This document shows positions 598 through 42,413 of a stretch of 64,000 nucleotides of DNA, piece by piece; the stretch's first letter is position 1; the number at the start of each line of letters is the position of its first letter. A program made the position numbers and the translations under genes. This stretch comes from a virus. Lineage: Duplodnaviria; Caudoviricetes. The notes beneath the pieces were generated by a model. That model was given only the letters and a program-made list of their open reading frames with translations, was not told the origin of the DNA and ran no database searches. Where the stretch lies: positions 7,021 to 71,020 of the IMG/VR virus record IMGVR_UViG_2974630626_000001. The stretch is one strand, 5' to 3'.

Positions 598-2031
598 GTG
601 AAGTTCGCAACCGTTGAAGGCGTGCCGCTGGTCAAAACCGGCACCTGGTCCGCGTCTACCGGACCCAAGGCTGTGACCAAGGAAGACCTGGCCGCAATCG
701 TGGAGGCCCACGAGTCCAACGTTCTTGACAAGGGCGTGCTAAAAAAGGGCCACCTTGACCCCCGCCATGAGAACCCCACATGGGACGGTGACCCGGCCTA
801 TGGACAGGTGGACAACCTCCGCTTGTCCGAGGACGGCGAAACGCTGCTGGGTGACTACATCAACGTGCCGGAAGACCTGGCCGAGTCCTTGCCGTCCGCG
901 TATCCGAACCGTTCCGCGGAAATCGCGTGGGGCGTGGCGATCAAGGACGCTGCCGGGAAGGTCACCAAGCAATTCAAGGCAGCGCTTGCCGGCGTCGCCC
1001 TGTTGGGACGAACGCCCCCGGCTGTGAAGGGCTTGGGCGGCCCGGTTTCGGCGTTCTCCGCTGCGTCGGTGGAGTACGAAAGCATCGGCGTATTCAGCAT
1101 GGTGTCTGAGTTCTCCTTGCCGGGTGGGCTGACCGCCAACGCGCTGCGGGAAGCTCTGACCACAGCCATTAATGAGGAATTCAAGTCACCCAAGGGTGAC
1201 GGCGAATATGCCGAGTGGCCGTGGATGATCGACTACGACGACACCAAGGCGTGGTTCCGTTCCAACGGCGGCGTGTTCCAGGTGGGATACACCGCGTCCG
1301 AGGCTGGGGAAATCACCCTGAATGACGACGTGACCGAGGTAATCGAAAAGCGCTCATTCGTTCCGGTCCCCGCTTCCGACACGGCAGCCGTCCCACAAAC
1401 GCAGCTTTCTGAAAAGCAAGCTACAGACGTACCAGGTGCTAACGGCACCACCAACGAAGCTACTAGGGAGGAAACCTCCATGTCTGAGTTCCTTATCAAG
1501 CTCCGGGACAAGCTTGGCTTGCCTGACACGGCCACGGAGGAAGAAATCCTTACTGCCGCCGCGTCTGCTGTCCCGGAACCCGCAGAAGACCCCGCCCCGG
1601 CCACTGACAAGGACGGCAAGCCCGTTGTTGAGGTTGCCGACGAAACCAAGGCAAGCGCTGGCCGTCACGCAGCCCCCGCCGATGGTGGCGCCCCCAAGAC
1701 CGTGGCCGTCTCTGAGGTTGCTTTCAATGAGCTCCTGGAGTCCAACCGCGCACAGGGCGCGCAGATTGCTGCGCTCACCCAGAACAACCGCACCCGCGAG
1801 GTCAACGGGCTGGTTGAGGGCTACATGAAGGCCGGGAAGATTCACCCCACGGAAAAGGCGTATTTCGCCGCCGCCCTGGAGTCCAACGAGGCCGCTACCC
1901 GGAAGCTGCTGGACGAACGCCACGGCATCCCGGTGGAACCCATCGGTTCCCAGAACGTCGACAACGTTTCGTTCAGCGAGGGCGAGAACTTCGACGCCGC
2001 TCTCGACGTGTTCAACCTTGGAGGTAAGTAG
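598..2031 (+). CDS. Capsid maturation protease / scaffold (Mu gpI-like)
   Basis: N-terminal motifs GHL, AYGQVDNL, YPNRSAE, LAGVALLG-PPAVKGL. Acidic helical C-terminal scaffold region; sits upstream of the decoration and capsid genes. Confidence 0.85.
   Translation: MKFATVEGVPLVKTGTWSASTGPKAVTKEDLAAIVEAHESNVLDKGVLKKGHLDPRHENPTWDGDPAYGQVDNLRLSEDGETLLGDYINVPEDLAESLPSAYPNRSAEIAWGVAIKDAAGKVTKQFKAALAGVALLGRTPPAVKGLGGPVSAFSAASVEYESIGVFSMVSEFSLPGGLTANALREALTTAINEEFKSPKGDGEYAEWPWMIDYDDTKAWFRSNGGVFQVGYTASEAGEITLNDDVTEVIEKRSFVPVPASDTAAVPQTQLSEKQATDVPGANGTTNEATREETSMSEFLIKLRDKLGLPDTATEEEILTAAASAVPEPAEDPAPATDKDGKPVVEVADETKASAGRHAAPADGGAPKTVAVSEVAFNELLESNRAQGAQIAALTQNNRTREVNGLVEGYMKAGKIHPTEKAYFAAALESNEAATRKLLDERHGIPVEPIGSQNVDNVSFSEGENFDAALDVFNLGGK
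1389..1422 (+). promoter_or_regulatory. Late-type promoter (CGTCCCACA box), internal to protease gene
   Basis: CGTCCCACAA-N18-CAAGCT; same spacing as five other copies. Confidence 0.65.
1480..2031 (+). CDS. Nested in-frame scaffolding protein (183 aa)
   Basis: In-frame ATG 1480 preceded by strong SD GGGAGGAA and by an internal late-type promoter; analogous to Mu gpZ and lambda Nu3. Confidence 0.6.
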   Translation: MSEFLIKLRDKLGLPDTATEEEILTAAASAVPEPAEDPAPATDKDGKPVVEVADETKASAGRHAAPADGGAPKTVAVSEVAFNELLESNRAQGAQIAALTQNNRTREVNGLVEGYMKAGKIHPTEKAYFAAALESNEAATRKLLDERHGIPVEPIGSQNVDNVSFSEGENFDAALDVFNLGGK

Positions 2032-2033
2032 AA

Positions 2034-2414
2034 ATGGCCAAGTACCTCAACGCCACGGATATTGTCCGCGATCCGGCGAAGAACTACACCGCTAAGGCCG
2101 GCGCTTCCGCCGTCCGTGGTCAGCGGTTCGTTTCGTTCATTGCTGGCGGCACCCGCGAGGTTCCCAAGGTGGCTGAGTCCACCGCGACCTCCGCGACTGT
2201 CGGTGTGAGCAAGTACGACTTCGCCGCCAACGACGAGGGCGGCATCATCACGGGCGGTCAGGTTGGCGTTATCGCCGGCGGCGCCGTCGCTGTGGGTGAC
2301 CGCGTTGTTTCCGACGCCCAGGGCCGTGCCGTCAAGGCTGCGGACGGTGCGCCATACGTCGGTGTTGCTTACACCGACGCCGCCCTCGACGCCGTTGTTT
2401 ACATCGCGTTCTAA
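2034..2414 (+). CDS. Capsid decoration/cement protein (DUF2190-like)
   Basis: 126 aa Ala/Gly/Val-rich with GGAVAVGDRVVSDAQGRAV motif; lies between scaffold and major capsid gene. Confidence 0.75.
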   Translation: MAKYLNATDIVRDPAKNYTAKAGASAVRGQRFVSFIAGGTREVPKVAESTATSATVGVSKYDFAANDEGGIITGGQVGVIAGGAVAVGDRVVSDAQGRAVKAADGAPYVGVAYTDAALDAVVYIAF

Positions 2415-2436
2415 GCCAAGAAAGGCATAAGAGAAA

Positions 2437-3333
2437 ATGACTACTCTCACCTACCCGCCGCAGGGTCCTGTCGTCAACGGGCGCGAAATCACCGTTGATT
2501 GGGCTCTCAAGCAGCCGACGTTCATTTCCAAGGCTGTCAGCCTGGCACTGACGGGCCGTTTCATTTCCGACTACATCTTCCGTGCCGGTAACGCCGCTGC
2601 GGGTGCCGTGGTCTACGAACGGACCCTCGGCCCGAACGAGAAATACCCGGTCAAGGGCGACGTCCAGATCGTGGAACCGGGCGACGAGTTCCCGCTCGTT
2701 GACATTGGCGAGGTTTCCCGCGAAACCGCCATGGTTGACAAGTTCGGTGCCGCCGCTCTGATCACCTACGAACAGATTCGGCGCAACCAGCGTGACAAGG
2801 TGACTGAGGCCGTCACCAAGATTGCCAACGCGATCCTCCGCAAGACCGACACCCGCGCCATGGCCGCACTCGCTGCGGACCCGGACAAGCTCACGGTTCC
2901 CGCCGCTGCTGCTTGGGGCACGGGCACCCCTGACCCGTTCGCGGACATTGTGGCCGCTGTGGGTCTTGGCGAAGGTCAGGAACTCGATTACAGCCTGGAT
3001 ACCGTCCTGATCAACCCCACGGACGCCGCCAAGCTGCTCAAGAACCGCGACATTCGCGACCAGTTGCCCCGCGAAAACGCAGCCCTCAACCCGCTGCTGT
3101 CGGGCCGTCTGGAAGGTCTTGCCGGCCTGTCGTGGATTCAGACCAACCGCAAGGCGGCTGGCTCGATCTACATTCTGCAGCGCAACATCACGGGTGTGCA
3201 CGCGGAAGAGCTCAGCACCTACACCCGCAACATTGACGAACCCGTCAATGAGCGCTGGCGGGTTCAGGGCGCGCGCGTTTCCGTGCCCATCATCACCGAT
3301 CCCAAGTCCATCATCGAACTGACGGGAATTTAG
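2437..3333 (+). CDS. Major capsid protein
   Basis: 298 aa with SD AAAGG...GAGAAA; gpE-like features (VEPGDEFP, KFGAAALIT, DTVLINP); synteny. Confidence 0.9.
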   Translation: MTTLTYPPQGPVVNGREITVDWALKQPTFISKAVSLALTGRFISDYIFRAGNAAAGAVVYERTLGPNEKYPVKGDVQIVEPGDEFPLVDIGEVSRETAMVDKFGAAALITYEQIRRNQRDKVTEAVTKIANAILRKTDTRAMAALAADPDKLTVPAAAAWGTGTPDPFADIVAAVGLGEGQELDYSLDTVLINPTDAAKLLKNRDIRDQLPRENAALNPLLSGRLEGLAGLSWIQTNRKAAGSIYILQRNITGVHAEELSTYTRNIDEPVNERWRVQGARVSVPIITDPKSIIELTGI

Positions 3334-3335
3334 TC

Positions 3336-3734
3336 ATGGCCCCCGCACGTCGTAGCGCATCCGATGCCCTCAAAGGCACCGAAGTGAAGCCGGAAGCCGA
3401 GGAAGGCAAGCTGCCCCTGGAAGCCGAGGAAGCCAAGGCATCCGAGGAAACCAAGCAGGACGCCCCCGAGGCAGACAAGGCCGCCGAGCAGGACGCTGAA
3501 AAGCAGACTGACGGCGACGCGGCCCCGGAAGCTCCCGAGGAATCCCCGGAAGCTGACGAGGACGACTCCGAGGACGAAGACGGGCTGGTGGAAGCCGTGG
3601 TGCTGTCCTCCATGTTCAACTACTTTGACGAGGAAGGTTCGCACTGCTCCGCTCTCAAGGGCGCAACGGTGCACCTCACCCACGAGGCCGCCGAGCGCGG
3701 CGTCAAGCTGGGTGCGCTCAAGGTCCAGGACTAA
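3336..3734 (+). CDS. Hypothetical acidic protein (head module)
   Basis: 132 aa, Glu/Asp/Ala-rich N-terminus; tightly packed after the capsid gene. Confidence 0.65.
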   Translation: MAPARRSASDALKGTEVKPEAEEGKLPLEAEEAKASEETKQDAPEADKAAEQDAEKQTDGDAAPEAPEESPEADEDDSEDEDGLVEAVVLSSMFNYFDEEGSHCSALKGATVHLTHEAAERGVKLGALKVQD

Positions 3735-3754
3735 GCCCCGAAAGGCTAACCAAC

Positions 3755-4258
3755 ATGGCTGAGGCCAGCACGTGGGGAGTCAGCGTCGATGATGTATCGG
3801 CGTTGGCCCCCCACATTGCTATTGCAAGCACTGAGGCGGTGCCCCCGGGCACGCCGGACCCATTCAACCAGTCCACGGTTCGGAAGGTCACGAACGGGCA
3901 AGTTGCTGCGTTCATTCAGGACATTTCCGCCATGGTGGACCTCCGATTGCACAGCCGCCACCGCGTCACGGACGCAGCGTTCGCCGCCAAGGTGGACACT
4001 GCCGCCGCGGACATTGTGACCAACGGGGCCGGGTCTTACCTCGTGGCCGCTGCGTTCCCGATCAAGGCGGGTGTCAGTGAGAACACCAACTACAGCGCCG
4101 AACTGTGGCGCCGCTACACCGAGGGGTTGGCGGCACTCGAAAAGGCGCTTGCTGATTTCATCAAGGCCGGAGACGGGGTGACCCCCACGCCGGGGGCTGC
4201 CGGACGTGTCAGCGGATACTTTCCGCCCATCCTGTTCCGGGACGACATGAGGTTTTAG
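3755..4258 (+). CDS. Head-to-tail adaptor
   Basis: SD GAAAGG; 167 aa helical protein; position after the capsid gene. Confidence 0.6.
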   Translation: MAEASTWGVSVDDVSALAPHIAIASTEAVPPGTPDPFNQSTVRKVTNGQVAAFIQDISAMVDLRLHSRHRVTDAAFAAKVDTAAADIVTNGAGSYLVAAAFPIKAGVSENTNYSAELWRRYTEGLAALEKALADFIKAGDGVTPTPGAAGRVSGYFPPILFRDDMRF

Positions 4259-4261
4259 CAC

Positions 4262-4732
4262 ATGAGTGCCATATTGCATTTCAGCGTTGAGGGCGGGGAA
4301 TCGTTCAACGTGATGCTTGACCGTTTTCAGGTCAACTTCACCGAGGCCGAACCCGTTTTCGAGGCCGCCGCCGAACACCAAAAGACCATTTGGCGGCAAC
4401 AGTTCGACCAAGAGGGCGCTTACACCGGAACCAGCCGGTGGTCTTCCTTGTCCCCGGACTATGGCGCGTGGAAGCAACGGCACTACCCCGGCAAGCCAAT
4501 CTTGCAACTCACTGGCGACCTGGTGGAGTCCATGACAGAACGGCCCTTTGGTGTGGACATAATCAGCCACAACCAAATGGTTATTGGCACAGCCGTGCCA
4601 TATGCGAGGTTCCACCAGGACGGCACGGAAAAGATGCCAGCGCGTCCGATTGTGCAAAAGCCGTCAGGGCGCGACCGGCTGCAATTCGCTAAGTACCTTC
4701 AGAACTGGATCGTGAAACGGAGTGTGACGTAA
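4262..4732 (+). CDS. Virion morphogenesis / neck protein (Mu gpG-like)
   Basis: WxxLSPxY...K...ILQLTGDL...IGT..PYARFHQDGT.KMPARP motif set. Confidence 0.75.
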   Translation: MSAILHFSVEGGESFNVMLDRFQVNFTEAEPVFEAAAEHQKTIWRQQFDQEGAYTGTSRWSSLSPDYGAWKQRHYPGKPILQLTGDLVESMTERPFGVDIISHNQMVIGTAVPYARFHQDGTEKMPARPIVQKPSGRDRLQFAKYLQNWIVKRSVT

Positions 4733-5355
4733 TGCTTGGAAGCGAGGGCGTTTCCCGGGCGCTGGTGTACCGGCTAATGGAACGGTTCCCGTCCAAGCTG
4801 CTGGAACTCCGCAACAGGCTGCAAGTGGACGGCTACGAACTGCCGGACGTTCAGCCCGAACACTTCTACCCCACCGAGGTCAACATTTTGGCCATTACCA
4901 CGTTCCCGTGCATTTCGGTGGTGTCCTACGAAACCACGGGCCGGGTTGGTAACCGACAGTTCGAGTCTGACGCGCTCTATGACGAATACAGCTACCGCTA
5001 CCGCATGCGGGTGTTCGTGTGGGGCATGGGCGACGGCGAGGTGGAAACCGACTTGCTGCGGAAGCGGCTGGCGTTGGCCGCCCGTGAGGTGCTGCTTAGC
5101 GGACTGATCCTGCATGATTCCAACGGACAGTATGCCGAGCTTGACCCGCAAACCCTCAAAGAGTCCTACAGCGACGTTGGGGAACGCGCGGCGGCCCAAT
5201 ACTTGGGCGGGGCGTACCTTGAGTTCGAGGTGGCCACGCAAGAGACGCTGGCAGCGCCCCAGGGCGTTGTAAGCGACCAACCGCCAACCATCACCCCGGG
5301 TATATCCCTCGTGGGCGTGGGCGACACGCACCCCGTCCCCCAACCGGAACCGTAG
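4732..5355 (+). CDS. Putative tail terminator / tail completion protein
   Basis: Translationally coupled (TAATG); FPCISVV motif; position just before the sheath gene. Confidence 0.55.
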   Translation: MLGSEGVSRALVYRLMERFPSKLLELRNRLQVDGYELPDVQPEHFYPTEVNILAITTFPCISVVSYETTGRVGNRQFESDALYDEYSYRYRMRVFVWGMGDGEVETDLLRKRLALAAREVLLSGLILHDSNGQYAELDPQTLKESYSDVGERAAAQYLGGAYLEFEVATQETLAAPQGVVSDQPPTITPGISLVGVGDTHPVPQPEP

Positions 5356-5367
5356 ACAAATAACCCT
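5334..5367 (+). promoter_or_regulatory. Late-type promoter, leaderless geometry
   Basis: CGTCCCCCAA-N18-AACCCT-N6-ATG(5374). Confidence 0.6.
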
Positions 5368-5373
5368 AGTGCC

Positions 5374-5676
5374 ATGACTGAAACAGTGAGGGTGTTCAAC
5401 CCCAATGCATTTGAAGTGGTCATTGACCTTGAGGGCCACGCCCTTGACGGCCACACGGCCACCGACGTGGGGCGGGACTCCCTCACGGACCACCTGATCG
5501 ACACCAACCAACTGCTGATTGTCCACCCCCCGGTGGCCGAGCCAGCGCCCCCGGTGTTGGTGGAGGAAACGCCGCCGGCGGACCCGGACGCGGTGGCAGA
5601 AACGCCCAAGCCGACAACCAGGCGGCGAACGAACACCGAGGCCACCGGCACCGGTTCTAAGAATGGAGAGAAGTAA
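5374..5676 (+). CDS. Hypothetical protein preceding sheath
   Basis: 100 aa, Pro-rich C-terminus; stop overlaps the sheath ATG. Confidence 0.65.
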   Translation: MTETVRVFNPNAFEVVIDLEGHALDGHTATDVGRDSLTDHLIDTNQLLIVHPPVAEPAPPVLVEETPPADPDAVAETPKPTTRRRTNTEATGTGSKNGEK

Positions 5677-7121
5677 TGGGAATTGGTGTTGAGGTAAGCA
5701 CCTCTCTGCGTACCGGCCCCACGAACCCGGGCATTGTTTCCGGGCGTCTGCAAATCGCCGGTATCACCGAGCGCGGTAACGCGTTCGAGTCCGTGCTGGT
5801 CCGCTCCCTGGCTCAGTACGAAAGCGCGTTCGGCACCCGTCAGGCATATGCGGCGAATATGTACGATTCCGCGCGCACGTTCTTCGAGGAAGGCGGATCC
5901 GAGCTCGTTGTTTCGCGTGCCGTGGGTCCGGCTGCCACCACGGGGTTCTTGAACATCAAGGACAGCGCCAACGTGGACACCCTCAAGGTGGCTGCGAAGA
6001 ACCCGGGCGCGCATTCGTCCGCGATCACGGTTGAAGTTTCCAACTCCGGTGGCTTTTTCGGCATCACCGTGAAGCGTGGCAGCGAAACCATTGGTTCCTT
6101 CCAGAACCTGTCCACCCCGGCTGACGCCGTGGCCGCTGCGTCCACGAACACGCACGTTGTGATCACGGACCTTGGTTCTGTCACCGCCGCCCCGGGCAAC
6201 CAGCCCAAGATTCTGGTTCCCACGGTCATGTCCGCTGGCACTGACGACCGCGCGAGCGTTACGGCCGCGATTGTGGCCGCCGCGCTGGCGAACCCGGGCG
6301 TGGTCACCAAGGGCGCTGCTGTGGCTGCCCCCGGCTATGCTGCATCGGTCATTGGCTCGCTGCTAATTGCCCACGCCAAGGCCACCAGCAAGGTTGCCTT
6401 GCTGTCCCCGGCTGCCGGTGCTACGGCCTCCGCTGCGGCTGTGGAAGCCAAAGCCCTGGTGGGTGCTGACGGCGCCTATGCTGGCGTGTTCTACCCGCAC
6501 ATTGTCATTCCTGACGGCAACGGCACCCGCACGATTTCCCCGGAAGCCTACATTGGCGCTGTCCGTGCCCGGGCGCACGTCACCACTGGCTTTTGGGCTG
6601 TCCCTGCCGGCGAACGTGCCCTGCCGCGTTGGATCGTTGGCACGGTCACCCCGGTGGACCGCCCCACGAACAACACGCTGGCTGACTCCCAGTTGAACGG
6701 CATCGTGACCGTGGGCGGCAAGCCGCGTCTTTACGGTTGGGCGTCGCTGGCAACTGACCGTGACAACCTTGGGTTGCTGTCCGCCCAGGACTCGCTGAAC
6801 AACCTCACGGTTCAGGTGGAGAACGAACTGGAAGAGTTCGTTTTCTCGACCATCGACGGGCGCGGCATCCTGTTGGGCCGTATCGAATCCGCCGTTACCG
6901 GAATCGTGGATCCCATTGCACAGGCCAATGGTTTCTACCCGGGCAAGCGTGACGGTGAAATTGTTGACCCCGGTTACCGCGTGACCGTGGACGAAACCAT
7001 CAACACCGCCACCAGCTTGGCAAACAACGAGGTCCGTGTGGCCCTCAGCGTTCGCCTTGCCCCCACGGCGGCGCTGATCAAGGCCGAAATCATCAAGGTT
7101 GCCCTGACGGCAGCCGTCTAA
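5676..7121 (+). CDS. Contractile tail sheath protein
   Basis: 481 aa; N-terminal PGV-type region, GITERG, YDSARTFFEEGGSELVVSR, C-terminal VALSVRLAPTAALI sheath-like end. Confidence 0.9.
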   Translation: MGIGVEVSTSLRTGPTNPGIVSGRLQIAGITERGNAFESVLVRSLAQYESAFGTRQAYAANMYDSARTFFEEGGSELVVSRAVGPAATTGFLNIKDSANVDTLKVAAKNPGAHSSAITVEVSNSGGFFGITVKRGSETIGSFQNLSTPADAVAAASTNTHVVITDLGSVTAAPGNQPKILVPTVMSAGTDDRASVTAAIVAAALANPGVVTKGAAVAAPGYAASVIGSLLIAHAKATSKVALLSPAAGATASAAAVEAKALVGADGAYAGVFYPHIVIPDGNGTRTISPEAYIGAVRARAHVTTGFWAVPAGERALPRWIVGTVTPVDRPTNNTLADSQLNGIVTVGGKPRLYGWASLATDRDNLGLLSAQDSLNNLTVQVENELEEFVFSTIDGRGILLGRIESAVTGIVDPIAQANGFYPGKRDGEIVDPGYRVTVDETINTATSLANNEVRVALSVRLAPTAALIKAEIIKVALTAAV

Positions 7122-7564: not shown

Positions 7565-7722
7565 CCCACCCGGACTGGCTGGGGAACGGGTGGGCTGAAC
7601 AGTGGGGCGGGGTGCGTCCGAGTTGTCCGTGCTTGGACACGCGCCCCGTCCCACACCCATTTAACGAATCGGGCAATCCTTGGTTCAGATCACCCCGCAA
7701 CGGGCTGGGTGGCAAGGACTGA
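7565..7722 (+). other. Structured intergenic region (candidate cis-RNA)
   Basis: CCCACCCG/CGGGTGGG hairpin 7565-7594; long G-U-containing hairpin 7602-7654; TTCAG...CTGAA-closed hairpin 7684-7723. Confidence 0.35.
7647..7680 (+). promoter_or_regulatory. Late-type promoter upstream of tail assembly chaperone
   Basis: CGTCCCACAC-N18-AATCCT. Confidence 0.6.
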
Positions 7723-17176: not shown

Positions 17177-18800
17177 CACCCTAGCCCGTCCCACAGTCAA
17201 ACGGTCATGACCTCCACCATGGGGGCATGGCCGTTTCAAATTCGCCCCGTCTTGGGCTTGAGCAATACAGTTCCGGCGCCGACCCGCACCCGGGGCGCGT
17301 TAAGTCCAATGACCGGGTGGCCCTTTTGGAGGCGCTGGTGGCTGTCGCTCAACAGGGCACCACAGCGCAGCGCCCCGCCGCTGGCAAAGCCCGGGCGTTC
17401 TACTGGGACACCACCGTCGACCGTCTGTATTTCGACAACGGCACGACGTGGAAAGAGGTAACCACGAACGGCGGCGGCGGTGCCGGGTCCGCGATTGTCC
17501 CGGGTGCTGCGGCGGTTGAGGGCACGTCCGGGAGGTCCGCGCGCGCTGACCACACCCACAGCTTGCCGTTGGCCACCGCAGCCGTTGACGGGGCCATGTC
17601 CAAGACGGACAAGGCCAAGCTGGACGCGGCCAACTCGCTGCCGACGCCCTCAACGCTGGTTATGTTGGACGCCAATGGGCGCACTCAGGTGGCTGCCCCC
17701 TCCGCTGCTGGCGACACGGCCAATAAGAGCTACGTTGACACCCAGGTTGGCACCAAGGCCAACACGTCCCACACGCACGCGGCTGCGGATATCACCAGCG
17801 GCACTTTCGCGACGGCTCGCATTCCCGTGGGAACCACCGCCGCCCCTGGCTCTATGTCCGCGGCTGACAAAACCAAATTGGACGCCGCAAGTGCCGCCGC
17901 CACGCCGTCCACCATCGTCATGCTCGACGCCAACGGACGCGCCCAAGTCGCAACTCCGGCTCTGGCTGCGGAAATCACGAACAAGAGCTATGTGGACACT
18001 CAGGTGGCCACCAAGGCGAACACCAGCCACACCCACGCTTGGGCCGATATCACCAGCGGCGTGCCCACCACCTTTACCCCAGCGGCACACACCCACGCCG
18101 CCGCCGACGTCACTTCCGGGACGTTCGCAGCCGCGAGGCTTCCCGCAGCAACAGGCGCGGCGGCTGGGTCCATGTCTGCCGCTGACAAAACCAAACTGGA
18201 CAACGCCACGGCGCTGGCCACCCCCTCAACGTTGGTGATGCTGGACGCGTCCGGGCGTGCTGCTGTGGCTGCCCCGTCCGGTGGCGGCGATATCGCGAAC
18301 AAGACCTATGTGGACGCCCAAGTGGCAACCAGGGCGGCAAGCTCGCACACGCACCCGTGGACGCAGATAACGAGCCTCCCGGCATCATTCACCCCGTCCG
18401 CGCACACCCATGTTTGGGCTGACCTCACGGACGCCCCGGCGACGTTCACCCCATCGGCGCACACGCACAGCGCTACGGATATCAACACGGGCACCCTGTC
18501 GGCGGCCCGTCTGCCGGCTGCGTCCGGCGCGACCGCTGGCAGCATGAGCGCTGCGGATAAGACCAAGCTGGACAACGCGAGTGCCGCCGCAACCGCCAAC
18601 ACTCTTGTGCTGTTGGACGCTGCGGGGCGCGCCCAGGTGGCGGCGCCGTCTGTGGCGGCGGACATTGCCAATAAGTCCTACGTGGACAGCGTGGCCTCCG
18701 GTAAGGCAGCAACCACGCACACCCACACTTGGGCGCAAATCACGAACCCGCCGGCGACTTACGCGCCGTCCGCGCACACCCACCCGTGGGCGGATATTAC
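15491..18800 (+). repeat. 86-aa (258-bp) and 19-aa HxH fibre modules shared by two fibre genes
   Basis: Unit starts at 15491, 15749, 16007. KANTSHTH...MSAADK.KLD...DIANK.YVD recurs in both genes. Confidence 0.85.
17187..17220 (+). promoter_or_regulatory. Late-type promoter, leaderless geometry
   Basis: CGTCCCACAG-N18-CACCAT-N6-ATG(17227). Confidence 0.7.
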
Positions 18801-24525: not shown

Positions 24526-24533
24526 CGGCGCAC

Positions 24534-24567
24534 CGTCCCACAGCCGCCCCGCCCCGGCTGCCATGCT
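24534..24567 (+). promoter_or_regulatory. Late-type promoter, leaderless geometry
   Basis: CGTCCCACAG-N18-CATGCT-N6-ATG(24574). Confidence 0.7.
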
Positions 24568-24573
24568 TGCGCC

Positions 24574-24915
24574 ATGGCTACTGGTCCCCTCTCTATACCC
24601 TTCCGGCTGAACCCGGACGGCACCGCCGCCACGGTGGGCTATGGCACTGACCGCGAGGTTGACGAAGCCATTGTGGCTTTGGTGCTGACCCACATGGGCG
24701 AGCGGCAAATGAACCCGGCCTTTGGCGTGCCCGATCCTGCTTTTGCGGGGTTGGACACGGGCGATATTCAGGTGGGCTTGGACCAGTACGGACCAGCCGG
24801 AATAACCATTCAATCGGTCACCAGCGAGCCGGTAGACGGCTCTGACCAGGTTGTGCGCGCCGTCGTGGCGTGGCAACGCGATTCTGACGGAACAGGAACC
24901 CAAAACAATGGCTGA
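24574..24915 (+). CDS. Baseplate wedge protein (gp25/gpW-like)
   Basis: PFRL...LT..GER.M.P.FG motif. Confidence 0.85.
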   Translation: MATGPLSIPFRLNPDGTAATVGYGTDREVDEAIVALVLTHMGERQMNPAFGVPDPAFAGLDTGDIQVGLDQYGPAGITIQSVTSEPVDGSDQVVRAVVAWQRDSDGTGTQNNG

Positions 24916-27896: not shown

Positions 27897-27973
27897 CTTG
27901 GCAAAACGTATAGCCCCCCTCTATAGTCTTTTTCAGACCCGCGGCAGTATGCTGAGGGTAGGGGTGAGACAGC

Positions 27974-28741: not shown

Positions 28742-29983
28742 ATGAAAGTGATTGCCCTGCAAGCCGAGAACGTCAAGCGGCTGCGTGCCGTGTCCCTTGC
28801 CTTTGACGGCACCTTGCAAGTCATTGGCGGTGACAACGGCGAAGGCAAGTCGTCAGTGTTGGATGCCATTTGGCTGGCCATTGGTGGCCGTCAGGCGACC
28901 AACGAAACGCAGACCACCCGCCCCATTCACGACGGCGAGGACGAAGCAAAGGCCACGGTGGACCTTGGGGAAATCATCGTCACCCGGACGTGGAAGCGCG
29001 GCAAGCCCGGGGCGGTGAAGGTCACCACCCGCGAGGGCGCGGAACACAAGTCCCCGCAAGCGATTCTGGACGCCCTCACGGCCAAGGTGGGCATTGACCC
29101 GCTGGCGTTCACTCAGTTGTCCGCCAAGGAACAGATGAAACAGCTTTTGGCGCTAGTCGACCTCCCGTTCGACCCGGCCAAGCTGGACGCCGAGGCTGCG
29201 GAAATCTTCACCGAGCGCACGGCGGTGAACCGTCGCGTGAACGAGGTGGACGCCCGTTTGAAGGGCTTTCCGCTCCCGGCCCCTGGATTGCCCGAACAAG
29301 AGATTGACGTGGCCGAACTGGTGGACTCGCTGCGGCGCATTGACTCGATCAACGCCGCCGTGATCCGCGCCAACGAACGGGTAACCGAGGCGGTGGCATC
29401 GGTTCAGTATTTCGAGGAAAAGCTGGAGGCCGCCAAGTCCGAGCAAAAGGCCGCCGAGGTTGCCCGGGCGGACGCTTACAACCTTGCGCAAGCGTCCCCC
29501 AACGCGGACGAATTGCGCGCCAAGCTGGACACCGTGAGCGAGACAAACAAGGCCGTGCGTGTGGAGCTTGAGCGCCAACAAGGCGTGAAGGTGCTGGCGC
29601 AACTCAAGGCCAAGTCTGACGAACTCACGGGGAAGCTTACAAGCATTCAGGACACCAAAGCCGAGGGGCTGGCCAAGGCCGCTTGGCCCATCCAGGGGTT
29701 GGGGTTCGACGCTGACGGGCTGACCTACAACGACGTGCCGTTCAATCAGGCGTCCAGCGCGGAACAGATCAGGGTGAGCATGGCCATGGCCATGGCTTTG
29801 CAGCCCAAGCTCAAGACCCTGTTTATTCGCGACGGCTCGCTGTTGGACGGCAAGAACATGCGTTTGGTGGCCGACATGGCAGCCGCTCAGGGCTACCAGG
29901 TGATCATGGAACGCGTGGGCGACCATGACAAGGGCGCAATCATCATTTCTGACGGCGAAGTAAAGGCAGACACGGACAAATGA
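28742..29983 (+). CDS. SMC/SbcC-like AAA ATPase
   Basis: ENVKRL, Walker A GDNGEGKSS, long coiled coil, ASSAEQ signature, FIRDGSLLD. SD GAGGAA. The frame is also open from ATG 28574. Confidence 0.85.
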   Translation: MKVIALQAENVKRLRAVSLAFDGTLQVIGGDNGEGKSSVLDAIWLAIGGRQATNETQTTRPIHDGEDEAKATVDLGEIIVTRTWKRGKPGAVKVTTREGAEHKSPQAILDALTAKVGIDPLAFTQLSAKEQMKQLLALVDLPFDPAKLDAEAAEIFTERTAVNRRVNEVDARLKGFPLPAPGLPEQEIDVAELVDSLRRIDSINAAVIRANERVTEAVASVQYFEEKLEAAKSEQKAAEVARADAYNLAQASPNADELRAKLDTVSETNKAVRVELERQQGVKVLAQLKAKSDELTGKLTSIQDTKAEGLAKAAWPIQGLGFDADGLTYNDVPFNQASSAEQIRVSMAMAMALQPKLKTLFIRDGSLLDGKNMRLVADMAAAQGYQVIMERVGDHDKGAIIISDGEVKADTDK

Positions 29984-36146: not shown

Positions 36147-36169
36147 CGGCCAATCCGGGGGCGTGGGCG

Positions 36170-36195
36170 AAAACAGGCACACGCCCCCATAGGCT
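36170..36195 (+). promoter_or_regulatory. Middle-type promoter box
   Basis: AAAACAGGCACA-N8-TAGGCT; the box lies inside the inverted repeat GGGGGCGTG/CACGCCCCC. Confidence 0.75.
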
Positions 36196-36232
36196 CGAAA
36201 TATCAAGTACCGCCACAACGAAAGCCGGACCA

Positions 36233-37119: not shown

Positions 37120-37298
37120 CTTGGGCAACCCACACAGACGGCAGCCCCGTGCACGTTTGGCCGCTGGAAGACACCATCGAACACCACCTTGAGGGCACTG
37201 GCTGCCCATGCGAACCCAAGACCGAGGAAGTGCCCCGCGAGGACGGCACCACAGGCGTCATGATCAGCCACAACGCAATGGACGGACGCCCCGAATGA
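37116..37298 (+). CDS. Small His/Cys protein
   Basis: HVWP..D.IEH....CPC.P...H; coupled at both ends. Confidence 0.7.
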   Translation: MTWATHTDGSPVHVWPLEDTIEHHLEGTGCPCEPKTEEVPREDGTTGVMISHNAMDGRPE

Positions 37299-37774: not shown

Positions 37775-37777
37775 ACC

Positions 37778-39004: not shown

Positions 39005-39131
39005 CGTTCAGGAAGCCCTCTATGCGTGGTGCGCGGATTGCTCCATGGGGTCCGAGGTAGGCATATTGCGCGCCGAGGCTGAGGCATGGGCGGACGAACA
39101 CGACGCCCTCAACCATGTGGAGGAACCATGA
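38994..39131 (+). CDS. Small Zn-finger-like protein (45 aa)
   Basis: TTG start; AWCADC...AEAWADEHDALNH; ATGA-coupled to the next gene. Confidence 0.5.
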   Translation: MTANVQEALYAWCADCSMGSEVGILRAEAEAWADEHDALNHVEEP

Positions 39132-39319
39132 TCGTGGCGACTTTCTGGCTGAATGTCGCGTGCTCGCTGGCCTTGTGCGTGGCCGCCGTACTGGCGTTTC
39201 GTGCTGCCTGGTTCAGCCGGAAGCCTAAGCCTGTTTGGGGTGACAAAAGCACCGCAGGGGCTCTCTTGGTGGCTTGCGTCCTTGGTGTCGCCGCGTTCAT
39301 CACAAGGGTGCTTGCATGA
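39128..39319 (+). CDS. Two-TM membrane protein
   Basis: SD GGAGGAA; two hydrophobic helices. Confidence 0.7.
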   Translation: MIVATFWLNVACSLALCVAAVLAFRAAWFSRKPKPVWGDKSTAGALLVACVLGVAAFITRVLA

Positions 39320-39783
39320 CCCAGGAAATCCCGGGGTTGTGGGGCGACGGCGGCGGGGACGCTTTGGGCGACCTTGCCGCCGCCGCGGACCACATCAAGA
39401 ACATGCCTTACGAGGCTTTCGTGCCGTGGGAACCGCCCACCGAACAGGACAAGCTACTTGAGGCCGTGAACGTTCCCCGGGCGTTGCCGGTGTCGTGGGA
39501 CGGCATCCCCATGGAATGGCGCGAATGGCACGCAGAGAACCAAATCACGATATGCCCACCCATCCCCCGCGAGCCGTGCCCACACTGCGGCTTTGACGAC
39601 GCGCCCCGGTCCATGTGCCGGGGCGTCCGGGTGGGTTCCAGGCTGCTGGGGCCACTCTTTGCGTTCCGCTGCCAAGCATGCGGCGGGGACACCGTGCACG
39701 ACCTCCAAGCCGGCGATACGTGGATCCTTGAGCTAGACGACTACGGCCCGGACGGGTCCACAGAGGTTCGGATTATCGACTAA
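39316..39783 (+). CDS. Zinc-ribbon protein
   Basis: CPHC...CQAC; ATGA-coupled. Confidence 0.7.
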   Translation: MTQEIPGLWGDGGGDALGDLAAAADHIKNMPYEAFVPWEPPTEQDKLLEAVNVPRALPVSWDGIPMEWREWHAENQITICPPIPREPCPHCGFDDAPRSMCRGVRVGSRLLGPLFAFRCQACGGDTVHDLQAGDTWILELDDYGPDGSTEVRIID

Positions 39784-39807
39784 AACAGGCACGCCCGGGG
39801 GCAAACT
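39782..39807 (+). promoter_or_regulatory. Middle-type promoter, leaderless geometry
   Basis: AAAACAGGCACG-N8-CAAACT-N6-ATG(39814). Confidence 0.85.
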
Positions 39808-39813
39808 GAGGAT

Positions 39814-40056
39814 ATGACCCTTTCTGACGACTCCCGCCGCATCCCGTTGGCTCAATGCCCGGAATGCCCCAAGCTCATGCCAACCGGCCAAGCCAGGTGC
39901 CAAGCCCATGACGTAAAAGCCGAGGTGGAGAAAACCACGGTGCGCAACCGATACCGGGCATACTGCGAAGCCCACCAAGACGGCTGGAACGGCACCAAAC
40001 GAACCGCCGAAAAATGGGCCACCGAACACAACAACGAACACCACAAGGACGCCTGA
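39814..40056 (+). CDS. Zn-binding small protein
   Basis: CPEC...C..H and C..H...AEKWATEHNNEHH. Confidence 0.75.
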   Translation: MTLSDDSRRIPLAQCPECPKLMPTGQARCQAHDVKAEVEKTTVRNRYRAYCEAHQDGWNGTKRTAEKWATEHNNEHHKDA

Positions 40057-40058
40057 CC

Positions 40059-40394
40059 ATGACCAGCGAACGGCCCCCGATAGGGGCAAAGGTCACTATC
40101 AATTCACCCGGCCATTTCCGGCACGGCGCCACCGGGGTGGTGAGCTACCACGGCACCATGCTGGGAACCATTGGCGTGACCGTCCGCGGCATCCAGTACG
40201 GGCTAATGCCGGGAGAGGTCACCCTGGTGGCTAAACCCGTCTGCCGGAACTGTGGGCGCCCCATCACCAGGAACACCCAGCCCCAGCACAGGTGGGCGCG
40301 GCGCATGCCCAAACGGGAATGGCTGCACAACGCCACCGATTTCGACCCCAAGAAACCAATGGATTGCTTCGACCCAGAACCCAAGGAAGACTAG
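40059..40394 (+). CDS. KOW/SH3-like plus Zn-ribbon protein
   Basis: IGAKVTI..PGHFRHGATGVV; CRNCG...W.H. Confidence 0.65.
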   Translation: MTSERPPIGAKVTINSPGHFRHGATGVVSYHGTMLGTIGVTVRGIQYGLMPGEVTLVAKPVCRNCGRPITRNTQPQHRWARRMPKREWLHNATDFDPKKPMDCFDPEPKED

Positions 40395-40396
40395 CC

Positions 40397-40912
40397 ATGC
40401 CTGAATTCGCCACAGCACGCCAACGCATCAACGAGTACCTACGGCAGCGCAAGGGCCAAAAAGGTCTTGACCGCGAGGTGATCCACAACAGCTTCACGGA
40501 CCCCAACGCCGCCGTTGCACCCCTCCTGATTGCGGACCTTGAGGAAGTCATGCAGACCTCAACAGGGCTGGACTCATGGACCTATTTCTATGCGTTCCAC
40601 GCCGCTTTTTCCGTTCTCAGAGTCCATGAGGCATGGACCATGGGACCAGGGGAAGACCTCAACGGAACTGGCAAGTTCCTTTCCCACAAAGTCACCTGTG
40701 TGGGCTGCCCCGCCGGCTGGCACACCTACGCGCTGAGTGCTGAGGACGCGCGCGAGCTATTCACCGGCCACCAAGCCAACGTTGTGGCCACCCGTTTGCG
40801 GGACAGTTTCCAGAACCCAGACAAGGCAGAGGAACAACAGCTAATCCTTGACCGGGTATGGCATGAGGGCTGGGACGCCAACGACGGCGACACAAGCCCC
40901 TACCAGCCATGA
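40397..40912 (+). CDS. Hypothetical protein
   Basis: 171 aa in operon. Confidence 0.65.
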   Translation: MPEFATARQRINEYLRQRKGQKGLDREVIHNSFTDPNAAVAPLLIADLEEVMQTSTGLDSWTYFYAFHAAFSVLRVHEAWTMGPGEDLNGTGKFLSHKVTCVGCPAGWHTYALSAEDARELFTGHQANVVATRLRDSFQNPDKAEEQQLILDRVWHEGWDANDGDTSPYQP

Positions 40913-41100
40913 GCCGCTACCTGGTCTGTGACGTTTGCGGCGGCAAGCTCCACTTGCCCACCACCCCGGCCCTTGCCGAGGGCTGGCAACGCCACAGCGT
41001 AGGCAGCGGCAACACGCTGGAAATCCGTTACACATGCCCCAAATGCAACCCCGCCAAGATCAAAGCCATTATGGAGGCTCGCAATGTCCGCCGTTCTTGA
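40909..41100 (+). CDS. Zinc-ribbon protein
   Basis: CDVCG...CPKC. Confidence 0.7.
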   Translation: MSRYLVCDVCGGKLHLPTTPALAEGWQRHSVGSGNTLEIRYTCPKCNPAKIKAIMEARNVRRS

Positions 41101-41944
41101 AGTCCTGAAAGCCCACCCCGATTGGAATTACGGCCCCGCCCCAGAGGGCAGAAATGGGGTGGCCAAATGCGCTGGCCCCGGCTGCGAATGGGAAGCCGTC
41201 AGCCCTCCACTTACGACCCGGGTAGAGGACTTGCACCGCGCCCACGTGGCTGAGGAAATCGCGCGGCTTGACGCACCTGTTGAGCTCAAAACCGAGCCGC
41301 TGAACACCTACAGCACGCAGCGCGAGGAAATGCTGCGCGGGTTCAACGCTGACGTGGCCGGCGGCAAGCTCACGCTGGTGCATGACAAGGGTCTTCACCG
41401 CTATCTGACGTTCCGGCCCCGCAGCGGTAATTTCTGCTGGTTCGATATCATCACCAGCCCCGGGCAACTCACCATTAGGGGCGACATGGGCGACTACATG
41501 TTCGCCCGGGAACCGGACATGCTCCGGGATTTCTTCCACCGGAACGTGAACCCGTCCTATTGGGCCGAAAAGGTGCTTGCCCAGGACGTGAACAGCCCCG
41601 TGCGTGAATACAGCCTCGATAGGTACAAGGCAAGCGTGCTGCATGACTTCTGGCACGCCCGGGAGGACTACACCCCCGCCGACGCCAAAGAGCTATGGCG
41701 CGAAATCCGCACCAGCGGCCCCCTGAACGACTACGCCGACTATCTGCACCCCAACGGCGCCATAAACGAACTTGAAACATTCAGTTCCGAGGTGGCCAAA
41801 GATTTCCGTTTCGACACGCACGGATATGACGATTTCGAGGACTACGGACACCACTTCCTTTGGTGCTGCCACGCCGTCCTGTTCGCCGCCCGGGCATATC
41901 GTGAACATGACAAAGCCAAGACCCTGGAAGGGGCCGAATCATGA
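41084..41944 (+). CDS. Conserved-looking phage hypothetical protein (286 aa)
   Basis: HDKGLHRYL.F...WFDIIT.PG.L.I.GD.GDY.F...VNP.YWAEK motif run. Confidence 0.8.
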   Translation: MSAVLEVLKAHPDWNYGPAPEGRNGVAKCAGPGCEWEAVSPPLTTRVEDLHRAHVAEEIARLDAPVELKTEPLNTYSTQREEMLRGFNADVAGGKLTLVHDKGLHRYLTFRPRSGNFCWFDIITSPGQLTIRGDMGDYMFAREPDMLRDFFHRNVNPSYWAEKVLAQDVNSPVREYSLDRYKASVLHDFWHAREDYTPADAKELWREIRTSGPLNDYADYLHPNGAINELETFSSEVAKDFRFDTHGYDDFEDYGHHFLWCCHAVLFAARAYREHDKAKTLEGAES

Positions 41945-42360
41945 CCATTGCACCCATCACCGCCCAAGAAATCGGCAACGTGACCGTGACCCGTGAGGGC
42001 AGCACGTTGCGAGCCACCACGGACCTGCTCAAGGTCACTGCCAACATGTCCGATGATCCGGCGACGCTGCGAACCAGGGCCACCATGGTGCTTGCGCTGG
42101 CCACCTACATTGACAGCCCACCGGCCCCGCCGTTCGAGTTCCCGCAGAACCACGCGGCCGTGCTGCTCGCTGACGGCCCCATGCAAGACGGCGTGGCGCC
42201 CGTGGCCCGATTCACCCGCATTGAAGACCGGGGCTGGTTCTCAGCAACCTACGGCTGGCAAACCGAGGCGTTCCTGTTGAAGGACTTCACGAATCTGCGG
42301 GTGATATCCGAGGGCATCCCCGGAACCGCCCCGGACACGATCCCGGACCCCACCGAATAA
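41941..42360 (+). CDS. Hypothetical protein
   Basis: ATGA-coupled, 139 aa. Confidence 0.7.
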   Translation: MTIAPITAQEIGNVTVTREGSTLRATTDLLKVTANMSDDPATLRTRATMVLALATYIDSPPAPPFEFPQNHAAVLLADGPMQDGVAPVARFTRIEDRGWFSATYGWQTEAFLLKDFTNLRVISEGIPGTAPDTIPDPTE

Positions 42361-42364
42361 CCCA

Positions 42365-42413
42365 CAACGCCCCGTGACGCATCCCACACTGTCACGGGGC
42401 GTTGCCATATCGT
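42365..42413 (+). promoter_or_regulatory. 14-bp perfect hairpin whose loop holds a late-type box
   Basis: CAACGCCCCGTGAC/GTCACGGGGCGTTG; CATCCCACAC(42380)-N18-TATCGT. Confidence 0.55.

What the first reader, a model, noticed from the sequence alone, without database searches (positions are those of the whole stretch)
1389..42413. Second promoter class, CGTCCCACA box, marking the structural genes
Seen in the sequence: CGTCCCACAA 1389, CGTCCCCCAA 5334, CGTCCCACAC 7647, CGTCCCACAG 17187, CGTCCCACAG 24534 and CATCCCACAC 42380. Each is followed after exactly 18 nt by NANNNT (CAAGCT, AACCCT, AATCCT, CACCAT, CATGCT, TATCGT). Three have an ATG exactly 40 nt from the box start (5374, 17227, 24574). 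Five of six head virion-gene blocks (scaffold/capsid, sheath, chaperone/tape measure, fibre/lysis, baseplate). Inference: these are late promoters read by host RNA polymerase with a phage activator or phage-altered sigma specificity, comparable in logic to Mu C- or P2 Ogr-dependent late promoters.
Basis: partly seen in the sequence, partly recalled or inferred. Interest (0 to 1): 0.82.

Follow-up and report, generated by a model that had tools for sequence, protein, structure and literature searches.

The report
Late promoters of Arthrobacter myophages
A ten-base box (CCGTCCCACA) set at a fixed distance from a minimal -10 element marks seven promoters that head every block of virion genes in this Arthrobacter phage and its relatives. 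Most start the message exactly at the ATG, and the protein that reads the box is still unknown.

Summary
All six listed sites exist with the stated geometry: box, 18 nt, NANNNT, 6 nt, then +1.

In the whole 71-kb genome the composite occurs 9 times on the + strand and never on the - strand, against about 0.06 expected.

A matrix trained on other genomes separates seven core sites at 27-39 bits from a background below 9. They lie at the portal, gp7, inside the scaffold gene, before the sheath, the chaperone/tape measure, the fibre/lysis block and the baseplate wedge.

The 42380 copy (loop of a stable hairpin, CATCCCACA) and a copy inside the MRE11-like gene are weak variants. The 17765 copy is coding.

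Box, A-11, T-7 and C-1/A+1 are conserved while spacers drift. This holds in five Klausavirus genomes, two other genera (Abba, BarretLemon; seven sites each) and several uncultured lineages.

Predicted starts coincide with independently annotated start codons.

Host genomes of the same family do not use the signal. The phage has no recognisable sigma, Mor/C, Ogr, MotA, AsiA, WhiB or GcrA homologue.

Best reading: phage-specific late promoters read by host RNA polymerase plus an unidentified phage factor. This scan noted the same motif earlier on related DNA (e1-5795391, e1-5849509).

The parts
1388..1429 (+). Class-2 promoter inside the protease/scaffold gene: C-41 at 1388, box 1389-1397, -10 CAAGCT 1417-1422, predicted +1 G at 1429; upstream GACAC 1378-1382
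   Evidence: 29.5 bits with a matrix trained on other genomes. Conserved at the orthologous place in all relatives examined.
1466..2031 (+). Nested scaffold reading frame served by the 1389 promoter: SD GGGAGGAA 1466-1473, in-frame ATG 1480, stop 2029-2031 (183 aa)
   Evidence: An in-frame ATG or GTG with an SD lies 31-52 nt after the predicted +1 in five Klausavirus genomes, Abba, BarretLemon, L174 and L175.
5333..5374 (+). Class-2 promoter before gp17 and the sheath/tube genes: box CGTCCCCCA 5334-5342, -10 AACCCT 5362-5367, +1 = A of ATG 5374. The stop of the preceding gene (5353-5355) lies in the spacer.
   Evidence: 31.3 bits. The annotated starts of the orthologues in DrYang, PrincessTrina, ArV1 and Colucci equal box start + 40.
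7646..7687 (+). Class-2 promoter before the chaperone/tape-measure block: box 7647-7655, -10 AATCCT 7675-7680, +1 A 7687, 51-nt leader to ATG 7738
   Evidence: 27.5 bits. Conserved from the GACAC element (7635-7639) through the -10 in five phages and G004.
17186..17227 (+). Class-2 promoter before the 770-aa fibre gene and the lysis genes: box 17187-17195, -10 CACCAT 17215-17220, +1 = ATG 17227
   Evidence: 38.9 bits. Annotated orthologue starts equal box start + 40.
24533..24574 (+). Class-2 promoter before the baseplate wedge / J genes: box 24534-24542, -10 CATGCT 24562-24567, +1 = ATG 24574
   Evidence: 29.9 bits. DrYang and PrincessTrina wedge starts equal box start + 40.
42365..42420 (+). 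Doubtful member: 15-bp hairpin 42365-42404 whose 10-nt loop is the variant box CATCCCACAC (42380-42389); TATCGT 42408-42413; predicted +1 A 42420; SD-led ATG 42443
   Evidence: 19.8 bits. Hairpin -28.4 kcal/mol, z -6.0. Loop, stem and -10 are conserved in five phages. It lies in the non-structural region, about 200 nt before a class-1 box.
29492..29536 (+). Weak copy inside the MRE11-like ATPase gene: CGTCCCCCA 29493-29501, CAAGCT 29521-29526, in-frame GTG 29534
   Evidence: 16.1 bits. Kept in 4 of 5 Klausavirus genomes, but it encodes S-P-N, so a protein constraint cannot be excluded.
17765..17773 (+). Exact box copy that is not a promoter (inside the fibre gene, no A/T hexamer at the right distance)
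   Evidence: 14.3 bits, hexamer CACCAG. Reads N-T-S-H-T-H in frame.

Best explanation
These are the late (virion-gene) promoters of a lineage of Arthrobacter myophages. Each has a box CCGTCCCACA at -41..-32, an unconserved 18-19 nt spacer, a minimal -10 (A at -11, T at -7, first base usually C, A or G rather than T), and a C-1/A+1 start.

At the portal, pre-sheath, fibre and wedge genes the +1 is the A of the ATG, so the mRNAs are leaderless. At gp7 and the chaperone genes there is a short leader. At the internal scaffold promoter a 51-nt leader carries an SD and an in-frame ATG for a nested scaffold protein.

Inferred mechanism: host RNA polymerase with its primary sigma reads the -10. A phage-encoded protein made earlier binds the box, which replaces a usable -35 (CCCACA gives only 3 of 6 matches to TTGACA, at a 19-nt spacing), and recruits or remodels the polymerase.

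Shown: the sequence architecture, its conservation and its gene context. Inferred: the start sites, late timing and the existence of a phage factor. Unknown: which protein it is.

My odds: real promoters 0.85; dependent on a phage-encoded factor 0.6.
For: Statistics:
- Composite 9 on + and 0 on - against 0.06 expected.
- A matrix trained without this genome gives seven sites at 27-39 bits, all in the virion module and all on +, with background below 9.

Footprint across six genomes:
- Mean pairwise identity is 0.98 in the box, 1.0 at A-11 and T-7, and 0.93 at -1/+1.
- It is 0.69 in the spacer and 0.5-0.7 in the flanks.

Features that were not in the search pattern are conserved: C-41 in 14/15, C-1 in 14/15, A+1 in 12/15.

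Predicted +1 equals the annotated start codon:
- Portal, gp17 and gp27 genes in DrYang, PrincessTrina, ArV1 and Colucci, and the wedge gene in DrYang and PrincessTrina.
- 5 of 7 sites each in Abba and BarretLemon.

Wider conservation:
- Abba and BarretLemon, from other genera, have exactly seven sites each at the orthologous places and none elsewhere.
- Uncultured relatives keep the design. Distant ones show drifted boxes, CCTCCCACC and CGTCCCCCAC, with the same geometry.
- An IMG/VR scan found 62 stretches with the correct spacing and 4 with the spacing off by one.

Other promoters and polymerases:
- No canonical sigma-70-type promoters in the virion region: 1 found against 3.1 expected.
- A strong terminator lies just upstream of the gp7 site.
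- No sigma70 r2/r4 domain in six frames at E<=10.

Host use:
- The full composite occurs 3 times in 121 genomes of the host's family, control 1.
- The CACCAT..ATG form gives 8 scattered hits in 185,579 species genomes.
Against: - No transcript data exist. +1 positions, timing and factor dependence are inferred from sequence only.
- The factor is unidentified. Pfam, PHROGs, profile, fold and atlas searches of candidates gave nothing specific.
- All genomes carrying the motif share a homologous virion module, so the many copies are not independent inventions.
- Two sites lie in coding sequence (1389, 5334), where protein constraint adds to conservation.
- Actinobacterial promoters often lack a clear -35, so weak factor-independent activity is possible.
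Confidence: 0.6

Rival explanations
1. The promoters are read by host RNA polymerase with the primary sigma alone. The box would be a lineage-specific -35/upstream element, and expression would be constitutive or set only by template copy number.
For: The -10 keeps the A-11/T-7 signature of primary sigma factors, and CCCACA shares ACA with TTGACA. No phage regulator was identified.
Against: - Ten contiguous bases, six of them upstream of any -35 equivalent, are held invariant at seven sites across three genera. Sigma region 4 contacts would not demand that.
- The -35-like part sits at a poor 19-nt spacing.
- The first -10 base is never T in the core sites.
- Host genomes of the family do not use the composite.
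Confidence: 0.12
2. A host alternative sigma factor or host activator reads the box, and the phage borrows a host regulon signal.
For: The box is identical in phages of Arthrobacter sp. ATCC 21022 and A. globiformis. It changes slightly in a Paeniglutamicibacter-associated relative, which could follow the host.
Against: - The full composite occurs 3 times in 121 genomes of the host's family, against 1 for the reversed control.
- It is at background density in 301 Actinomycetota genomes.
- The -10 is of the A-11/T-7 type, not the CGTC/GTT type of ECF sigmas (established knowledge).
- A fixed -35-like element upstream of CGTC, which an ECF reading would need, is absent.
Confidence: 0.1
3. A cryptic, highly diverged phage sigma factor replaces the host sigma at these promoters.
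For: Diverged phage sigmas such as T4 gp55 and SPO1 gp28/gp34 escape standard domain models (established knowledge). Many phage ORFs here have no known family.
Against: - No Sigma70_r2, r4 or r4_2 match at E<=10 in six frames.
- The same A-11/T-7 hexamer and the same hexamer-to-start distance serve the other promoter class of this phage, which points to one shared -10 reader.
Confidence: 0.1
4. The boxes are not promoters. They would be oriented protein-binding or RNA-level sites, such as stoperator-like repressor sites, processing sites or antitermination signals.
For: Oriented short repeats in actinophage genomes can be repressor sites (cluster A stoperators, established knowledge). One copy sits in the loop of a conserved RNA hairpin.
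Against: - Exact spacing to an A-11/T-7 hexamer, to C-1/A+1 and to SD-less start codons.
- The off-by-one spacing control collapses from 62 hits to 4.
- No conserved RNA structure at the core sites. The spacers vary, and the two upstream flanks that were folded, before the portal and chaperone sites, are unremarkable (z -0.8 and -1.6).
- These are lytic phages without an annotated repressor or integrase.
Confidence: 0.05

Closest known systems
Phage T4 middle promoters (MotA box with AsiA-remodelled sigma-70)
   Same: A phage-specific box takes the place of the -35 element while a sigma-70-type -10 is kept. Host polymerase is redirected without a new polymerase.
   Different: The box is centred near -36.5 and ends 19 nt before the -10, not centred at -30 and 11-13 nt from it. 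No AsiA or MotA C-terminal domain in six frames. It serves late virion genes, not middle genes. The other box class of this phage (AAAACAGGCACG, 8 nt before the -10) is geometrically closer to MotA boxes.
Phage Mu late promoters (Plys, PI, PP, Pmom) with activator C, and Pm with Mor
   Same: Late promoters with a usable -10 and no functional -35, switched on by a phage activator bound over the -35 region.
   Different: C and Mor bind dyad-symmetric sites centred near -43.5. This box is asymmetric and strictly oriented. No Mor family match.
P2/P4 late promoters with the Ogr/Delta zinc-finger activators
   Same: One small phage protein turns on several late operons that share an upstream element. 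A zinc-ribbon protein (the gp1-like family) is conserved in the complete and near-complete genomes that cover its region.
   Different: The Ogr site is a TGT-N12-ACA dyad near -55. No such dyad is conserved here, and there is no Ogr_Delta match.
Leaderless-mRNA promoters of Actinobacteria
   Same: The -10 ends 6 nt before an ATG or GTG that is both transcription start and start codon, with no SD.
   Different: Ordinary host leaderless promoters carry TANNNT and no conserved 10-bp upstream box.
Lambda C/Nu3 type nested scaffold genes
   Same: A C-terminal scaffold protein is read in frame from an internal start inside the protease/scaffold gene.
   Different: Here the nested frame has its own promoter as well as its own SD, conserved in five lineages.

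Membership tests
Sigma-70-family (primary sigma) promoter | -10 hexamer with A at position 2 and T at position 6, 6-8 nt before the start | tested here: met
   A-11 and T-7 in 15/15 diverse sites, although both letters were part of the pattern that selected the sites. Their identity across orthologues is 1.0.
Sigma-70-family (primary sigma) promoter | Pyrimidine at -1 and purine at +1 | tested here: met
   C-1 in 14/15 and A+1 in 12/15. Neither was in the search pattern.
Sigma-70-family (primary sigma) promoter | -35 hexamer close to TTGACA at 16-18 nt | tested here: not met
   The best equivalent is CCCACA (3 of 6) at 19 nt. The consensus scan finds no enrichment in the virion region.
Sigma-70-family (primary sigma) promoter | Mapped primary 5' end | not testable with these tools
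   No transcript data were available.
Mu C / Mor-dependent promoters | Phage encodes a Mor/C family activator | tested here: not met
   PF08765: no match at E<=10 in six frames.
Mu C / Mor-dependent promoters | Dyad-symmetric activator site over -30..-55 | tested here: not met
   The box is asymmetric and found on one strand only. No dyad appears in the position table.
P2 Ogr / P4 Delta-dependent promoters | Ogr/Delta zinc-finger protein | tested here: not met
   PF04606: no match at E<=10.
P2 Ogr / P4 Delta-dependent promoters | TGT-N12-ACA element centred near -55 | tested here: not met
   The only conservation upstream of -47 is a partial GACAC at about -52..-48.
T4 middle promoters (MotA/AsiA) | AsiA and MotA homologues | tested here: not met
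   PF09010 and PF09158: no match.
T4 middle promoters (MotA/AsiA) | Box centred at -30, 11-13 nt from the -10 | tested here: not met
   The box spans -41..-32.
ECF sigma promoters | AAC-type -35 about 16-17 nt upstream of a CGTC-type -10 | tested here: not met
   Nothing is conserved 16-17 nt upstream of CGTC, whereas a conserved A/T hexamer and start lie downstream.
WhiB-like or GcrA-like sigma cofactors | Phage encodes a Wbl or GcrA domain | tested here: not met
   PF02467 and PF07750: no match. The atlas lead to GcrA for the 47-aa HTH scored 0.86, below the useful range.

The most novel reading that the evidence does not exclude
The box is read by a new, two-part phage system with no relative among known late regulators. 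One part would be the conserved zinc-ribbon protein (gp1-like: N-terminal CPAC...CxVC, basic linker, invariant RGLPxLSAxGHPSHLAR motif), which would bind CCGTCCCACA. The other would be the conserved acidic ~100-aa protein (gp6-like), which would act on the host polymerase in the way AsiA or gp33 do in T4.

The gp6-like gene has its own non-late promoter and terminator in the middle of the late module. Outside the virion and DNA-metabolism genes, only these two proteins of unknown function turned up in every lineage whose sequenced DNA covers the region where each is encoded.
Probability: 0.12. Interest if true: 0.8.

Novelty: new member of a known kind. Interest (0 to 1): 0.5.

Why it matters
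How actinobacteriophages switch on their late genes is largely unknown. They carry no RNA polymerase and rarely a recognisable sigma or activator.

This finding gives seven precisely placed, deeply conserved promoters with base-level predictions of the start sites. It also gives a clean negative control (spacing off by one) and a short list of candidate readers, so the question can be tested directly in a tractable host, Arthrobacter sp. ATCC 21022.

It also improves annotation:
- Start codons of the portal, pre-sheath, fibre and wedge genes are fixed at box + 40.
- A nested scaffold gene with its own promoter and SD is revealed.
- The virion region divides into seven transcription units.

If the reader protein is found, the pair would be an orthogonal, infection-dependent expression switch for Micrococcaceae.

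As a kind of system it is not new. Activator-dependent late promoters are textbook, and this scan has met similar box-plus-leaderless designs in other phage lineages.

Tried and rejected
Literature:
- No promoter description was found for cluster AR phages in the held library.
- The ArV1 paper (J Virol 2017, PMC5375659) is not held, so prior description there cannot be excluded.
- A full-text search for the 9-mer gave only unrelated primers.

Other readings of the box:
- ECF-type reading (CGTC as the -10): rejected for lack of an upstream -35 and because of the conserved downstream hexamer and start.
- GACAC at -52..-48 as a displaced -35: no usable -10 at 16-19 nt, so rejected. It remains an unexplained auxiliary element, absent at portal sites.

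- A Pfam screen of 74 non-virion ORFs (E<=0.01, repeated at E<=0.5) showed no sigma or known activator family among the 25 families listed each time; 34 and 93 families matched in all. The PHROGs screen was likewise uninformative.
- A Pfam search of ten named candidates at E<=1 gave only weak generic HTH hits.
- 47-aa HTH (62549-62692): lineage-restricted. AlphaFold gives a three-helix bundle with pLDDT 74. Only generic HTH matches in the PDB. Weak match to a G001 ORF, hhalign probability 17%. Present in Abba but not detected in BarretLemon.
- gp6-like protein: model pLDDT 80, no PDB match at E<=0.001.
- gp1-like protein: no Pfam or atlas hit.
- A QLSF-like stretch in the gp1-like linker resembles a sliding-clamp-binding motif but is not conserved in distant members. 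Not pursued.

Not used:
- No complex prediction was run. No host sigma sequence was at hand, and no pair had a strong enough prior.

Errors and chance hits:
- My first IMG/VR pattern had the spacing wrong by one. I kept it as a control.
- The GACAC-N7-box scan gave mostly chance hits.


Full report
**What the window is.** The window is bases 7021-71020 of a 71,020-bp virus record. Its closest named relatives are Arthrobacter myophages of the genus Klausavirus (SEA-PHAGES cluster AR): DrYang at about 80% identity, then PrincessTrina, ArV1 and Colucci. Their annotation gives the gene map used here: terminase, portal, MuF-like, protease/scaffold, decoration, capsid, sheath, tube, chaperone, tape measure, hub, fibres, lysis, a short leftward operon, baseplate wedge/J, then about 40 kb of non-structural genes. 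None of the four fully annotated relatives has an annotated sigma factor or RNA polymerase.

**The observation.** All six sites and their letters are as stated, as are the 18-nt gap to NANNNT and the three ATGs at +40.
- A loose test (one mismatch, both strands) shows no enrichment: 25 found against 28 expected.
- The exact 9-mer is enriched: 5 in the window, all on +, against 1.0 expected. There are 7 on + and 0 on - in the genome.
- The composite C[GA]TCCC[AC]CA-N19-NANNNT occurs 9 times on + and never on -. Simulations gave a mean of 0.06 and a maximum of 1.
- The two extra exact copies lie just left of the window. One is at genome 2797, with CACCAT and the portal ATG at +40. The other is at 6647, before gp7 and directly after a strong terminator hairpin (-37 kcal/mol, then UUUUU).

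**Which copies belong.** A position matrix (-41..+2) built only from other genomes separates three groups.
- Seven sites score 27-39 bits: portal, gp7, scaffold-internal 1389, pre-sheath 5334, chaperone 7647, fibre 17187 and wedge 24534.
- A middle group contains the hairpin copy 42380 (19.8), the copy inside the MRE11-like gene 29493 (16.1), one - strand hit at genome 46522 (15.2) and the coding copy 17765 (14.3, no -10).
- Background lies below 9.

The 42380 copy has A for G at -39. It is the 10-nt loop of a 15-bp hairpin (-28.4 kcal/mol, z -6.0), conserved with its stem in five phages. It lies in the non-structural region about 200 nt before a class-1 box. I treat it as a doubtful member.

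**Anatomy.** Pooling 15 diverse sites gives this picture.
- C at -41 (14/15) and CGTCCCACA at -40..-32.
- No information in the spacer.
- A-11 and T-7.
- C at -1 (14/15) and A at +1 (12/15).

C-41, C-1 and A+1 were not in the pattern used to collect the sites. A pyrimidine-purine start 7 nt after the T of a -10 is what a transcription start looks like (established knowledge of sigma-70-type promoters).

The first -10 base is C, A or G in the core sites, never T. The -35 equivalent, CCCACA, matches TTGACA at 3 of 6 positions with a 19-nt spacer. A partial GACAC lies at about -52..-48 in most sites but not at portal sites. Its role is unexplained.

**Phylogenetic footprint.** At the seven orthologous places in five Klausavirus genomes and the uncultured relative G004, mean pairwise identity is as follows.

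| Region | Identity |
|---|---|
| Box | 0.98 |
| A-11 and T-7 | 1.0 |
| -1/+1 | 0.93 |
| Spacer | 0.69 |
| -6..-2 | 0.67 |
| Far upstream | 0.5 |

The predicted +1 coincides with the start codon chosen independently by the annotators. This holds for portal, gp17 and gp27 in all four named Klausavirus genomes, and for the wedge gene in two of them. These four genes have no properly spaced SD, which fits leaderless translation, common in Actinobacteria.

**Reach beyond the genus.** An IMG/VR scan with CCGTCCCACA-N20-ANNNT-N5-CATG found 62 stretches. The same pattern with the gap one base shorter, sent by mistake, found 4. That is a useful control on the spacing.
- The hits include about 50-kb Arthrobacter myophages of other genera.
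- Abba (Ayohtrevirus) and BarretLemon (Marthavirus) each carry exactly seven sites. All are on + and lie at the portal, scaffold start, inside scaffold, pre-sheath, chaperone, fibre and wedge genes. Five of the seven predicted starts fall on annotated start codons.
- Uncultured contigs with 30-50% protein identity keep the same design.
- Two distant relatives were found through the gp1-like protein. One lies in a Paeniglutamicibacter genome contig, the other in a 99-kb metagenome contig. Both keep the geometry but with drifted boxes: C[CG]TCCCAC[CG] and CGTCCC[AC]C[AC]C.
- The other box class of this phage (AAAACAGGCACG, 8 nt, NANNNT, 6 nt, ATG; 11 copies; note e1-5795428) is absent from Abba, BarretLemon and G001. 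Class 2 is therefore the older and wider signal.

**The internal scaffold promoter.** Site 1389 lies in codon ~277 of the 477-codon protease/scaffold gene. Its predicted +1 (1429) is followed by a 51-nt leader, an SD (GGGAGGAA, 1466-1473) and an in-frame ATG (1480) opening a 183-residue C-terminal protein. The same arrangement recurs in all five Klausavirus genomes, Abba, BarretLemon, L174 and L175, with an in-frame ATG or GTG and an SD at +31 to +52. This looks like a nested scaffold gene of the lambda C/Nu3 type with its own promoter. It also boosts transcription of the decoration and capsid genes downstream.

**Who reads it.**
- The phage has no large ORF that could be an RNA polymerase, and no Sigma70_r2, r4 or r4_2 match at E<=10 in six frames. 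Host polymerase must therefore be used.
- The A-11/T-7 hexamer and the hexamer-to-start distance are shared by both box classes. This points to one -10 reader, most simply the host primary sigma.
- The host does not seem to own the signal. The full composite occurs 3 times in 121 genomes of the family that holds Arthrobacter and Paeniglutamicibacter, against 1 for the reversed control.
- The shorter composite occurs roughly 450 times in 301 Actinomycetota genomes, about the same order as its control.
- The CACCAT..ATG form has 8 scattered hits in 185,579 species genomes.
- The count includes 12 genomes flagged unpublished (G006, G007, G024, G054, G088, G094, G126, G154, G180, G232, G245, G274). 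Only aggregate counts are used from them.

A phage-encoded factor is thus the most economical reading. Known types are absent: Mor/C, Ogr/Delta, AsiA, MotA C-terminal domain, WhiB and GcrA.

**Candidates (leads only).**
- Among the complete genomes, the non-virion, non-DNA-metabolism proteins shared by Klausavirus, Abba and BarretLemon are few. They are a TerS-like HTH protein, a gp1-like protein and a gp6-like protein.
- The gp1-like protein (genome 1-657) has an N-terminal zinc ribbon, a basic linker and an invariant RGLPxLSAxGHPSHLAR motif.
- The gp6-like protein (genome 6280-6585) is acidic and 101 aa long. In Klausavirus it has its own class-1 promoter and a terminator inside the late module. 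Its model is confident but matches nothing solved.
- The gp6-like protein also occurs in G003, G004, L174 and L175, and the gp1-like protein in G005, L174 and L175.
- The 47-aa HTH at 62549-62692 is as conserved as the terminase (77% in G005) and lies after a class-1 box. It was found in Abba but not in BarretLemon.
- Because all these phages share ancestry, co-occurrence proves nothing.

**Verdict.** The finding is a real, well-defined promoter class of a phage lineage, very probably the late class. The kind is known (activator- or appropriator-type late promoters), but this box and its reader are not described in anything I could search. The ArV1 paper could not be read. The same motif was noted earlier in this scan on related genomes (e1-5795391, e1-5849509).

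Noticed in passing
outside the window: genome 6250-6585 (window -771 to -435): A class-1 box (AAAACAGGCACG, 8 nt, GACAAT, 6 nt, ATG) drives a single acidic 101-aa gene (gp6-like) in the middle of the late virion module. A strong terminator and the class-2 promoter of gp7 follow it. The gene keeps this position in Abba, BarretLemon, G003, G004, L174 and L175. In L174 it has a TAGAAT-type leaderless promoter.
   Followed up: partly
outside the window: genome 1-657; relatives Abba gp64, BarretLemon gp68, P0013-P0032: A conserved family of ~200-220-aa proteins with an N-terminal zinc ribbon (CPAC...CxVCxGxG), a variable Pro-rich/basic linker and an invariant RGLPxLSAxGHPSHLAR motif. No Pfam or atlas match. 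One member lies in a Paeniglutamicibacter genome contig next to terminase and portal genes.
   Followed up: partly
window 1466-2031: Nested in-frame scaffold gene (SD plus ATG 1480) inside the protease/scaffold gene, not annotated in any relative and conserved in five lineages.
   Followed up: yes
window 29493-29536: The weak class-2-like copy inside the MRE11-like ATPase gene is followed by an in-frame GTG at the predicted start. This could be a leaderless C-terminal isoform, or a coincidence of an S-P-N coding stretch.
   Followed up: partly
window 42365-42404: A very stable conserved hairpin whose loop sequence CATCCCACAC is invariant in five phages. In the relatives it has the A-tract/U-tract form of a two-way terminator.
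   Followed up: partly
window 27898-27927: The best canonical sigma-70-type match in the window (TTGGCA, 18 nt, TATAGT). It lies right after the last virion gene, at the head of the recombination-gene operon.
   Followed up: no
Actinomycetota genomes: The string CGTCCCACAC-CTGCGGGCG-N-CGCTCGACCAT recurs once per genome in many Actinomycetota. It looks like the antisense of a conserved gene start, not a promoter, and it inflates the background count of the short composite.
   Followed up: no
window 17765 and Colucci 22616 (L014): The exact box inside fibre genes reads N-T-S-H-T-H, part of the HxH fibre repeats. This is a coding source of chance copies.
   Followed up: partly
window 56049-56297: An 82-aa protein with CxxC-N27-CxxC and no family match, conserved at 33% in G005. 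It is similar in size and metal-site layout to small zinc-finger late activators, but nothing links it to the box.
   Followed up: no
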